Shown: piece by piece, positions 35,399-36,362 of the stretch
Layout: every line of letters begins with the position of its first letter
Position numbering within the stretch: the stretch's first letter is position 1
Notes under the pieces: model-generated
The model's database searches: none
The model's input: only the letters and a program-made list of their open reading frames with translations
What the model was told of the DNA's origin: nothing
Program-made: the position numbers and the translations under genes
Origin: a bacterium
GTDB taxonomy: Bacteria > Patescibacteriota > Minisyncoccia > Phycocordibacterales > CAIZLB01
Assembly: GCA_027490575.1 (NCBI GenBank)
Contig: JAIXXV010000032.1
Span: 13,211 to 77,210, forward strand
Direction: 5' to 3'
Length of the DNA stretch: 64,000 nucleotides

Positions 35399-35446
35399 AA
35401 CTGTTAACTGCTATCTGATATCTGTCATCTGACACCTGTTAAGCTA
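35399..35446. repeat. 7-nt periodic array (CAG phase on the minus strand)
   Basis: Plus strand CTGTTAA CTGCTAT CTGATAT CTGTCAT CTGACAC CTGTTAA between the nusB-nudix stop and rnc. Confidence 0.6.
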
Positions 35447-36362
35447 CCACGTTCTGTTTTTTAAGCAATATCTGTACCGCCTTCGTAACTATTGGCAAAA
35501 TGTCATTATAAAAATTGAGCGTTAGTAGATCTTTTGCATTAAACCACCTTGCATCTGTTAGTCCTCCACTGGTTCCAAGTGTAAGCGGTATAAAGTCGGA
35601 CTTTGCCAGGTAGTAACAAACTTGCTTTCGAATCTTGCCATCTTCTGGATGAGATGCAATGTACTCATTGTTAGCCAACTCTTCCTCTATCTCAATATCT
35701 ATACCCATCTCCTCCTTAATCTCACGCATGATGCCATCTTTCATATCTTCGTCACCTTCTAATTTACCTTTTGATAGAGTCCAGTGCCCAAAAACATCAT
35801 GAACTAGAGCGAACTGCATCTCACCATCGTGCATGGCATATACCACAGCACCTCCTAGTTTTTGTATTGGCATTTCTTCATAAGGAACTTCCTTTTTCTC
35901 CTTTTTTTGCTTTTTTGTAGAAACCTCCTCCTTTCCTGGCTCGCCCATCTCTTTGTAGACAGCACCGAGTACTCCGTTTACGAACTTGCCGGATGTTTCC
36001 CCTCCGAAAGACTTCGCCAGCTCAATAGCCTCGTTGATGGCCACTTTAGCTGGTACCTCCTTCCTATCGCCAAAAATTAGCTCAAAAAGGCCTATTCTGA
36101 GCACATTTCGATCAACTATCGCAATCTTGGGTATTGGCCACTCAGGAGCTGCTTTTTCAATGATTAGGTCTATTTCAGGGTTCTTTTTAACCACACCATC
36201 TACAATGTTTTTAATAAACGAAAAATCGCCCATACCAGGAGCGAATTCTTCAACATTTCTTTGAACAATTTCACCAACAACAGCAGAGTCTGAAATACCT
36301 CGAAAGTCTCTTTCGAAAAGTGATTGTAGTGCTATTGATCGTGAAAGGTGCCTATTTGCCAT
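35439..36362 (-). CDS. nusB: NusB (transcription antitermination factor) fused to a C-terminal NUDIX hydrolase domain
   Basis: N-terminal about 140 aa NusB ([30 protein letters not shown], near-identical to the E. coli NusB core), a Lys/Glu-rich linker, then Nudix box [30 protein letters not shown]. Confidence 0.8.
   Translation of the reverse strand: [307 protein letters not shown]

What the first reader, a model, noticed from the sequence alone, without database searches (positions are those of the whole stretch)
35439..36362. NusB fused to a NUDIX hydrolase domain
The N-terminal 140 aa is an unambiguous NusB ([27 protein letters not shown] is nearly identical to E. coli). After a KKQKKEKKE linker comes a complete Nudix fold with a canonical Nudix box. 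Coupling an antitermination/rRNA-transcription factor to a nucleotide pyrophosphohydrolase (possibly RppH-like RNA 5' pyrophosphohydrolase or NAD-cap decapping) has not, to my knowledge, been characterised. It could link rRNA transcription complexes to RNA 5'-end processing. It is one of three NUDIX genes in this 64-kb window.
Basis: partly seen in the sequence, partly recalled or inferred. Interest (0 to 1): 0.6.

Follow-up and report, generated by a model that had tools for sequence, protein, structure and literature searches.

The report
NusB with tethered Nudix domain
This gene from a tiny uncultivated bacterium (Paceibacteria/Patescibacteria) really does encode the rRNA transcription factor NusB joined by a flexible basic linker to an Ap4A-hydrolase-like Nudix domain; the fusion is conserved in hundreds of species and always sits next to RNase III, but a third of species have lost the catalytic residues while keeping the nucleotide-binding pocket, so nucleotide binding rather than hydrolysis looks like the conserved job.

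Summary
ORF 35439-36362 (minus strand, 307 aa) has three parts: a bona fide NusB (aa 4-139, above the TIGR01951 equivalog cut-off), a disordered Lys-rich linker, and a Nudix domain (aa 166-306) with a perfect Nudix box. It is not an assembly artefact. The identical protein occurs in independent assemblies. The gene order rnhB>rpmF>nusB-nudix>rnc>smc is fixed.

The Nudix half is not RppH- or NudC-like. By sequence and fold it belongs with the ApnA hydrolases (Ndx1, Aquifex Ap4A-ase, NUDT2).

About 36-38% of family members have lost catalytic or metal-ligand glutamates, mostly E214, which aligns with NUDT2 E58. This happened in at least 41 independent events. In those members the adenine-stacking and phosphate-binding residues (W194, K198, Y234, Y250, W273, Y285) stay 94-99% conserved, and the rest of the domain shows no relaxed constraint.

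Best reading: NusB carries a tethered nucleotide-polyphosphate reader. It is probably still a hydrolase in this genome and most plausibly acts at the 5' end of nascent pre-rRNA. No literature describes it. It is a new variant of a known kind, of moderate interest.

The parts
35439..36362 (-). Whole nusB::nudix ORF, 307 aa plus stop codon
   Evidence: ORF list. Pfam NusB plus NUDIX. The identical protein is found in independent assemblies.
35946..36353 (-). NusB domain, aa 4-139, all-helical
35886..35939 (-). Disordered Lys-rich linker, aa 142-159 (includes KKQKKEKKE)
   Evidence: pLDDT is below 50 for aa 142-157 and pTM is 0.48. Across the family the linker has a median of 12 aa, 36% K/R, and net positive charge in 88% of members.
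35445..35867 (-). Nudix-fold domain, aa 166-306, ApnA-hydrolase type
35700..35768 (-). Canonical Nudix box, aa 199-221 ([23 protein letters not shown])
   Evidence: Regex and alignment. Intact in 155/249 family members and 51/80 species, eroded in the rest.
35661..35663 (-). Y234, aligned to the ApnA-hydrolase specificity tyrosine (NUDT2 Tyr87 in 1XSC numbering)
   Evidence: Alignment. The role of this tyrosine is described in PMC5389931. It is conserved in 94% of box-eroded members and 98% of intact members.
35508..35510 (-). Y285, aligned to the second aromatic of the adenine sandwich (NUDT2 'LAQF' Phe)
   Evidence: Alignment. Conserved in 98-100% of members in both groups. The stacking role is from my own recollection of the NUDT2 and C. 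elegans structures.
36448..36678 (-). rpmF (ribosomal protein L32), immediately upstream, same strand
   Evidence: TIGR01031. L32 was detected directly upstream of the fusion in 76 of the 80 species loci; three of the other four loci begin at or close to the fusion. The same position holds in distant members.
34656..35348 (-). rnc (RNase III), immediately downstream, same strand, 90-bp gap, no terminator-like site between
   Evidence: TIGR02191 at 261.6 bits. Directly downstream in 80/80 loci. It overlaps the fusion by 8 nt in L084. No terminator-like site lies between the fusion and rnc.
32161..34539 (-). smc (short form), downstream of rnc in the conserved cluster

Best explanation
SHOWN: This is the lineage's NusB (the rRNA antitermination factor that binds boxA RNA together with S10). 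It was extended, inside an older rpmF-nusB-rnc gene cluster, by a short disordered basic linker and a complete Nudix domain of the diadenosine-polyphosphate (ApnA) hydrolase type. Across the family, the residues under strongest selection in the Nudix half are not the catalytic glutamates. They are the residues that in NUDT2/Ndx1-type enzymes stack the adenine and hold the phosphates.

INFERRED: The NusB half does the ordinary NusB job of clamping the boxA leader of nascent pre-rRNA next to the RNA exit channel. The tethered Nudix half binds a purine-nucleoside polyphosphate group within reach of that complex. The most plausible target is the 5'-terminal tri- or diphosphate, or an Np4-type cap, of the nascent leader RNA that NusB is holding. 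In genomes with an intact box, including this window, it probably hydrolyses that group (pppRNA or Np4-RNA to pRNA). That would deprotect the leader for the processing that begins with the co-encoded RNase III. In the roughly one third of species with an eroded box it would act only as a 5'-end or nucleotide reader or anchor.
For: The architecture is real and conserved:
- Domain calls.
- 120/120 close clusters.
- About 60 representatives at 50% identity, down to 32% identity.
- At least 592 GTDB species with this domain type, 80/80 examined fused.
- Independent assemblies.

The two halves are independently folded and joined by a disordered linker. The linker is basic in 88% of members.

Nudix half is ApnA-hydrolase type by sequence profile and by fold. 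Y234 aligns with the ApnA specificity tyrosine that contacts adenine (PMC5389931).

Catalytic erosion with pocket retention:
- 94/249 sequences and 29/80 species lack at least one of E205, R213, E214, E217, E218. E214 becomes K/A/I/V in most.
- In these same sequences W194, K198, Y234, Y250, W273 and Y285 are 94-99% conserved.
- At least 41 independent state changes.
- The non-box Nudix identity of eroded pairs equals that of intact pairs at matched NusB divergence (0.62/0.68/0.78 vs 0.66/0.71/0.79).

E214 aligns with NUDT2 E58, and the E58A mutant is inactive on pppRNA (PMC8616924).

Precedent for RNA 5'-end chemistry by this Nudix type: NUDT2 converts PPP-RNA to P-RNA, and RppH removes Np4 caps (PMC8833179, PMC7044304).

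Context:
- The fusion is always directly upstream of rnc.
- Unfused relatives have rpmF-nusB-rnc.
- In E. coli the rrn complex fixes the 5' leader at NusB, and nusB defects are suppressed by deleting rnc (PMC8632103).
Against: No biochemical data exist.
- The nearest solved relatives (Ndx1, Aquifex and Chlamydia Ap4A-ases) are known as free-nucleotide enzymes, not RNA enzymes.
- RppH-specific models do not match.
- The model gives no fixed inter-domain geometry (pTM 0.48), so reach to the RNA 5' end is an assumption.
- I could not examine rRNA leaders or boxA in these genomes, because the window contains no rRNA.
- Related lineages manage with an unfused 144-152-aa NusB and no adjacent Nudix gene, so the module is not essential for NusB function.
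- Some of the conserved aromatics (W194, Y250, W273) may be fold-core residues rather than ligand contacts.
- Nudix enzymes with altered boxes can retain or change activity (examples in PMC5389931), so 'eroded' need not mean 'inactive'.
Confidence: 0.35

Rival explanations
1. Free-nucleotide sensor or scavenger on NusB. The Nudix domain binds, and where the box is intact hydrolyses, a free dinucleoside polyphosphate or related adenine nucleotide (Ap4A/Ap6A-type alarmone, ATP). This would couple rRNA antitermination and processing to nucleotide or stress status. Box-eroded versions would be pure sensors, like the Nudix domains of NrtR regulators.
Against: It does not explain why a sensor should be covalently tied to NusB through a basic linker in every one of 80 species. 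No allosteric interface with the NusB half is predicted (pTM 0.48). A sensor would not obviously need catalytic residues, yet about 62% of members keep a perfect box.
Confidence: 0.25
2. Structural accessory of the antitermination complex. The Nudix fold serves mainly as a protein-protein or protein-RNA surface in the Paceibacteria rrn elongation complex. The enzyme-fold protein SuhB plays such a role in the E. coli rrnTAC, and NUDT21/CFIm25 is a non-catalytic Nudix protein of the pre-mRNA cleavage/polyadenylation machinery. The nucleotide pocket would be vestigial or would bind an RNA base.
For: Catalytic residues are dispensable in at least 41 lineages while the domain stays under constraint. 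[quoted passage not shown] NUDT21 has a box of the 'RL..EI' type, similar to the natural RK/RA/RI/RV variants here (PMC5389931).
Against: The best-conserved residues map to ligand-contact positions of ApnA hydrolases, not to a new surface. No partner could be tested. Most members keep a perfect catalytic box, which a purely structural role would not require.
Confidence: 0.15
3. Functionally unrelated fusion. A house-cleaning Ap4A/NTP pyrophosphatase gene happened to fuse to nusB in a streamlined genome, and the two halves work independently.
For: The halves are independent folding units with a disordered linker. The window encodes two other small stand-alone Nudix proteins, so Nudix genes are common here. 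Unfused NusBs exist in related lineages.
Against: The fusion is kept in 80/80 species with the linker always present. No genuine stand-alone copy of this Nudix type was found; the candidate P0230 is a contig-end truncation. If the only role were house-cleaning hydrolysis, loss of catalytic glutamates should be followed by decay or loss of the domain. Instead, eroded lineages keep the pocket and normal constraint.
Confidence: 0.15

Closest known systems
Canonical NusB (E. coli, Aquifex aeolicus, T. maritima; TIGR01951 / PF01029)
   Different: Canonical NusB ends after about 140 aa. This protein continues into a basic linker and a 140-aa Nudix domain. In this lineage nusB sits between rpmF and rnc.
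ApnA hydrolases of the Nudix superfamily (T. thermophilus Ndx1 Ap6A hydrolase, Aquifex aq_158 and C. elegans Ap4A hydrolases, Chlamydia CT771, human NUDT2, Nudix domain of M. tuberculosis Rv2985/MutT1)
   Different: Those enzymes stand alone or, in MutT1, are fused to a histidine phosphatase. None is fused to a transcription factor. In them the Nudix box is conserved, whereas here it is eroded in about a third of species.
RsmB/Sun 16S rRNA m5C967 methyltransferase
   Different: The RsmB N-domain is a diverged NusB-like paralogue and its catalytic domain is a methyltransferase. Here the N-domain is orthologue-grade NusB and the appended domain is a Nudix fold.
RppH (RNA 5' pyrophosphohydrolase) and NUDT2 acting on pppRNA / Np4-capped RNA
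   Same: They have the same superfamily and box. NUDT2, which belongs to the same ApnA subgroup, converts PPP-RNA to P-RNA, and its E58A mutant is dead (PMC8616924). RppH removes Np4 caps (PMC8833179). This is what the intact-box form may work like.
Non-catalytic Nudix domains (NrtR/AraR regulators; NUDT21/CFIm25)
   Same: In these proteins the Nudix fold is kept as a ligand- or RNA-binding module with substituted box glutamates. NrtR and AraR appear among the structural and sequence hits. NUDT21's 'RL' at the RE position resembles the RK/RA/RI/RV variants here.
   Different: Those proteins are fused to wHTH DNA-binding domains or act in eukaryotic 3'-end processing. In this family most members, including the window's, still have a perfect catalytic box.
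SuhB in the E. coli rrn antitermination complex
   Same: It is an enzyme-fold protein recruited to the NusB/boxA-dependent rRNA transcription complex, where it contacts leader RNA (PMC6614801, PMC8632103).
   Different: It has an unrelated fold (inositol monophosphatase) and is a separate polypeptide. Any analogous role for the Nudix domain is conjecture.

Membership tests
NusB (TIGR01951 / PF01029) | Sequence model score above the curated cut-off | tested here: met
   TIGR01951 scores 114.6 bits against a cut-off of 88.35. PF01029 scores 111.6 bits against 23.1.
NusB (TIGR01951 / PF01029) | All-helical NusB fold superposable on solved NusB structures | tested here: met
NusB (TIGR01951 / PF01029) | Heterodimer with S10/NusE and binding of boxA RNA; antitermination activity | not testable with these tools
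   This needs biochemistry or complex modelling. No rRNA leader is present in the window.
NusB (TIGR01951 / PF01029) | It is the genome's NusB orthologue (no second copy) | tested here: inconclusive
   There is no second NusB in the 64-kb window. The whole genome was not available.
Nudix hydrolase superfamily (PF00293) | Pfam NUDIX score above the gathering cut-off and the alpha/beta/alpha Nudix fold | tested here: met
Nudix hydrolase superfamily (PF00293) | Nudix box GX5EX7REUXEEXGU with the metal-ligand glutamates | tested here: met
   The window protein has a perfect box. Across the family the box is not met in 94/249 sequences and 29/80 species.
Nudix hydrolase superfamily (PF00293) | Mg2+/Mn2+-dependent pyrophosphohydrolase activity | not testable with these tools
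   An enzyme assay is required.
ApnA (Ap4A/Ap6A) hydrolase subgroup (Ndx1 / NUDT2 type) | Closest sequence and structural neighbours are characterised ApnA hydrolases | tested here: met
ApnA (Ap4A/Ap6A) hydrolase subgroup (Ndx1 / NUDT2 type) | Conserved specificity tyrosine downstream of the box that contacts adenine (Tyr87 of human Ap4A hydrolase) | tested here: met
   Y234 aligns to it and is 94-98% conserved in the family. The motif definition comes from PMC5389931.
ApnA (Ap4A/Ap6A) hydrolase subgroup (Ndx1 / NUDT2 type) | Hydrolysis of ApnA | not testable with these tools
   An enzyme assay is required.
RppH (RNA pyrophosphohydrolase; NF001936-8, TIGR02705 YtkD) | Equivalog model score above the cut-off | tested here: not met
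NudC (NAD(H) diphosphatase / NAD-cap decapping) | Equivalog model above the cut-off; SQPWPFPxS motif downstream of the box; zinc-binding Cys motif | tested here: not met
   NF001299 scores 16 bits against 158. The sequence after the box reads [22 protein letters not shown], with no SQPWPFPxS motif. The protein has a single Cys (translation).

The most novel reading that the evidence does not exclude
The Nudix domain is a co-transcriptional 5'-end reader/eraser built into the rRNA antitermination complex. Tethered to NusB, it captures the triphosphate or Np4-type capped 5' end of the nascent pre-rRNA leader. Catalytically intact versions deprotect that end. Naturally 'dead' versions (E214K/A/I/V) only hold it. 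This would give Paceibacteria a way to couple 5'-end status to RNase III-initiated rRNA maturation that has no counterpart in model bacteria.
Probability: 0.2. Interest if true: 0.75.

Novelty: new variant of a known kind. Interest (0 to 1): 0.5.

Why it matters
NusB is one of the most conserved bacterial transcription factors and has been studied almost entirely as a 140-aa stand-alone protein. A whole class of ultra-small bacteria (at least 592 species genomes) has instead fixed a version carrying an ApnA-hydrolase-type Nudix module, always encoded next to RNase III.

If the module acts on the 5' end of the RNA that NusB holds, it would be the first case of 5'-end (de)protection wired directly into an antitermination complex. 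It would also be a natural experiment: dozens of independent catalytic losses with the binding pocket retained separate 'reader' from 'eraser' functions of a Nudix domain.

Even if the ligand is a free alarmone such as Ap4A, it would link dinucleoside-polyphosphate signalling to rRNA synthesis.

On the practical side, these proteins are annotated simply as 'NusB', so the extra domain is invisible to annotation-based metabolic reconstructions of Patescibacteria.

Tried and rejected
1. Frameshift or assembly artefact. Rejected: the identical protein is found in independent assemblies and the architecture holds in all relatives.
2. RppH-like or NudC-like identity. Rejected on model scores, motifs and structural rank.
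3. Stand-alone copies of this Nudix type, as evidence for a split-gene ancestor. P0230 begins at base 39 of a 1.8-kb contig and is followed by rnc, so it is a truncated fusion. P0212, P0204 and P0266 sit on contigs of about 1 kb or less, or were not followed up.
4. Programmed -1 frameshift in the linker to make NusB-only protein. The window has two in-frame A_AAA_AAG heptamers. Such A-rich heptamers (A_AAA_AAG or A_AAA_AAA) total only 12 occurrences across the 80 species loci, so they look like a by-product of Lys codons.
5. Promoter and terminator scan around the gene. Promoter-like sites were no more frequent than in shuffles. No terminator lies between the fusion and rnc. The scan is uninformative about separate regulation.
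6. Rfam scan. There are no RNA elements near the gene and no rRNA in the window, only two tRNAs.
7. Organism names for the most divergent fusions. The cluster look-up returned none.
8. AlphaFold-DB fold search for the two-domain architecture. The library was unavailable.
9. Literature. Two full-text searches (NusB + Nudix + fusion; NusB/Nudix/Patescibacteria) found nothing relevant.

Full report
OBSERVATION. The window contains an ATG-to-stop ORF of 307 aa at 35439..36362 on the minus strand. Pfam finds NusB at aa 7-137 (E 4.5e-32) and NUDIX at aa 172-285 (E 1.4e-10), both above their gathering scores. NCBIfam's nusB equivalog TIGR01951 scores 114.6 bits against a cut-off of 88.35. The linker KKQKKEKKE is present at aa 150-158. 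The box G199..E205..R213-E214..E217-E218..G220 fits GX5EX7REUXEEXGU exactly. Two further Nudix-box genes lie at 15685-16128 (+) and 31663-32151 (-).

NOT AN ARTEFACT. The identical protein is called on six contigs from independent data sets, including NCBI GCA_027484805.1 and several Logan SRA assemblies. A word-indexed search of 5.8 billion proteins returned 120 listed clusters. All are near-full-length (about 280-383 aa) and 67-100% identical. 119 of them are flagged with both Pfam domains. Where named, they are called 'NusB' from Paceibacterota, Parcubacteria, Taylorbacteria or Patescibacteria. An exhaustive HMMER search of 1.84 billion 50%-identity representatives found 153 hits at E<=1e-30. 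About 60 of these are full-length two-domain representatives, down to 32% identity. All 56 tested match NusB, and 46 of 56 match NUDIX at E<=0.01.

DISTRIBUTION AND SYNTENY. A scan of one genome per GTDB species used a motif from the Nudix half ([LFM]V[HNK]D[VI]F[GN][HYK]W). The best 80 are all Patescibacteria of the Paceibacteria/Parcubacteria lineage, which is NCBI phylum Minisyncoccota. The many 'Saccharibacteria' labels come from bulk-binned MAG sets and look generic, and one locus is labelled Nanoarchaeota.

In all 80 loci NusB and Nudix lie in one ORF of 296-326 aa (two outliers: 222 aa in the end-truncated L049 and 414 aa in L035). All 80 share the co-directional order rnhB > rpmF(L32) > nusB-nudix > rnc(RNase III) > smc, with dnaE divergent upstream and RNase R convergent downstream, exactly as in the window. 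Distant, box-eroded members keep the same order; in L084 the fusion overlaps rnc by 8 nt. Related lineages with an unfused NusB of 144-147 aa (53-56% identical) have rpmF > nusB > rnc with no Nudix gene. So the Nudix domain sits at the 3' end of nusB within an older rpmF-nusB-rnc cluster. In the window the gaps are 85 bp (rpmF to fusion) and 90 bp (fusion to rnc), and no terminator-like site lies before rnc.

STRUCTURE. AlphaFold2 on a 63-sequence alignment gives mean pLDDT 85. The model has a seven-helix N-domain (aa 4-139), a linker with pLDDT below 50 (aa 142-157) and a confident alpha/beta C-domain (aa 166-306). The pTM of 0.48 indicates no fixed inter-domain geometry. The linker has a median of 12 residues across the family, is 36% K/R, and is net positive in 88% of members.

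Sequence agrees with structure. A profile of 30 diverse fusion Nudix domains hits Aquifex Ap4A-ase at E 1.3e-17, CT771 at 8.8e-14, Ndx1 at 1.3e-11 and NUDT2 at 1.1e-9. RppH and NudC equivalog models reach only 14-19 bits against cut-offs of 116-158. The NudC motif SQPWPFPxS is absent.

THE UNEXPECTED PART: CATALYSIS IS DISPENSABLE BUT THE POCKET IS NOT. Among the 120 closest clusters, 25 have a substitution at a key box position. Among the roughly 60 diverse representatives, only about 10 keep the full set. In a pooled alignment of 249 fusion proteins, 94 (38%) lack at least one of E205, R213, E214, E217 or E218. Among the 80 species representatives, 29 (36%) do.

The usual casualty is E214, the Glu of 'RE', which is replaced by K (35), A (19), I (11), V (9) or G (4). 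E214 aligns with NUDT2 E58, and the E58A mutant is inactive on pppRNA (PMC8616924). On an NJ tree built without the box columns, Fitch parsimony needs at least 41 state changes, and there are 51 maximal all-eroded clades. Erosion is therefore highly recurrent.

In the eroded group, other residues remain conserved: W194 at 97%, K198 at 99%, Y234 at 94%, Y250 at 98%, W273 at 98%, Y285 at 98%, D189 at 95% and K246 at 90%. Y234 aligns with the tyrosine that defines ApnA hydrolases and contacts the adenine ring (Tyr87 of human Ap4A hydrolase; PMC5389931). Y285 aligns with the NUDT2 Phe that I recall as the other face of the adenine sandwich. H193 and K198 align with the H-W-x3-K-G phosphate ligands.

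At matched NusB divergence, the non-box Nudix identity of eroded-eroded pairs (0.62, 0.68, 0.78) is essentially that of intact-intact pairs (0.66, 0.71, 0.79). So the domain does not decay after catalytic loss. The conserved property of the C-domain is thus a nucleotide-binding pocket. Hydrolysis is an option kept by about two thirds of species, including this genome.

MECHANISM. Shown: an orthologue-grade NusB, a flexible basic tether, an ApnA-hydrolase-type Nudix fold, pocket conservation exceeding box conservation, and an invariant position upstream of rnc.

Established elsewhere:
- NusB with S10 binds boxA and fixes the 5' leader of nascent rRNA next to the RNA exit channel.
- The leader pairs with the spacer to form the RNase III site.
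- nusB cold-sensitive defects are suppressed by deleting rnc (PMC8632103; PMC6614801).
- ApnA-type Nudix enzymes can work on RNA 5' ends. NUDT2 converts PPP-RNA to P-RNA. RppH, first described as an Ap5A hydrolase, removes Np4 caps (PMC8833179, PMC7044304).

Inferred: the tethered Nudix domain binds, and where intact hydrolyses, the 5'-terminal polyphosphate or cap of the leader RNA held by NusB. I put this at about 0.35.

The rivals are:
- A free-ApnA or adenine-nucleotide sensor or scavenger that modulates NusB function (0.25).
- A largely structural accessory of the antitermination complex, analogous to SuhB or NUDT21 (0.15).
- An unrelated house-cleaning enzyme fused by accident (0.15). 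This last is disfavoured because the domain persists, under constraint, after catalytic loss.

Caveats:
- There is no biochemistry.
- There is no rRNA leader in the window.
- Whole genomes were not available, so a second NusB, other RppH/ApaH genes or SuhB could not be checked.
- Some conserved aromatics may be fold-core residues.
- Altered boxes can retain or change activity (examples in PMC5389931).
- The tree is a rough NJ tree.

COMPARISON AND NOVELTY. The protein is a member of the NusB family and of the Nudix superfamily, ApnA-hydrolase subgroup. It is not a member of RppH or NudC. I found no description of the fusion. Databases label it simply NusB. It is a new variant of a known kind: known domains in a lineage-wide, uncharacterised combination, with an unusual pattern of recurrent catalytic loss.

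Interest is moderate (0.5). It is surprising to NusB and Nudix specialists and readily testable in vitro. However, the mechanism is inferred and the organisms are uncultivated.

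Noticed in passing
window 15685-16128 (+) and 31663-32151 (-): Two further small stand-alone Nudix proteins (147 and 162 aa) have canonical boxes. The first gives weak, sub-threshold hits to the RppH and MutT models. The second gives a weak hit to the NudC catalytic core. Either could be the genome's actual RppH-like enzyme, which bears on what the NusB-fused domain is needed for.
   Followed up: partly
window 35901-35916 (-), inside the linker: The Lys-rich linker is encoded by an A-rich tract with two in-frame A_AAA_AAG heptamers (codons 150 and 153), the dnaX-type -1 slippery motif. 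A -1 shift would terminate after 7-10 codons and yield a NusB-only product. A-rich heptamers of this kind (A_AAA_AAG or A_AAA_AAA) occur only 12 times across the 80 species loci, so this is probably incidental to Lys codon usage.
   Followed up: yes
window 32161-34539 (-): The SMC homologue is only 792 aa, against about 1180 positions in the TIGR02168 profile. It matches as two stretches and falls just below the equivalog cut-off (521 vs 567 bits). A similarly short SMC (about 735-836 aa) appears in the related loci.
   Followed up: no
window 19976-21379 (+): The TsaD homologue is 467 aa with the PF00814 match reported as two stretches, the best one starting at residue 146. This suggests an N-terminal extension or a fused partner (perhaps TsaB-like).
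   Followed up: no
window 28449-30569 (+), 34656-35348 (-), 37115-37888 (-), 21971-23038 (+), 17297-18016 (-): There is a dense concentration of nuclease genes around the fusion: RNase R, RNase III, RNase HII, a MYG1-family exonuclease (UPF0160) and an SNase-domain protein. The RNase R / smc / rnc / nusB-nudix / rpmF / rnhB / dnaE block is syntenic across the 80 species loci.
   Followed up: partly
window 31253-31666 (-): A 137-aa ORF overlaps the upstream Nudix gene (31663-32151) by 4 nt. Its only hit is a weak one to the N-terminal (zinc-finger) part of the DnaG primase model.
   Followed up: no
L040 (JAGVNG010000018.1) and the many CAY*/CAZ* loci: One locus with the typical Paceibacteria gene order is labelled 'Nanoarchaeota archaeon'. 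About 30 others from bulk-binned MAG sets are labelled 'uncultured Candidatus Saccharibacteria'. These labels are probably mis-assignments or generic names rather than evidence that the fusion occurs in those groups.
   Followed up: no
L084 5893-5900 (ERZ25070786 ctg150186l): In a distant, box-eroded member (P0163, 38% identity) the nusB-nudix stop overlaps the rnc start by 8 nt. This suggests translational coupling of the fusion with RNase III in some lineages.
   Followed up: no
alignment A3 (diverse fusion representatives): One of the 56 NusB-containing representatives gives a weak Pfam hit to Rho_N. 10 of the 56 have C-terminal halves that no longer match any Nudix model at E<=0.01. These may be extremely eroded Nudix domains or different appended domains.
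   Followed up: no
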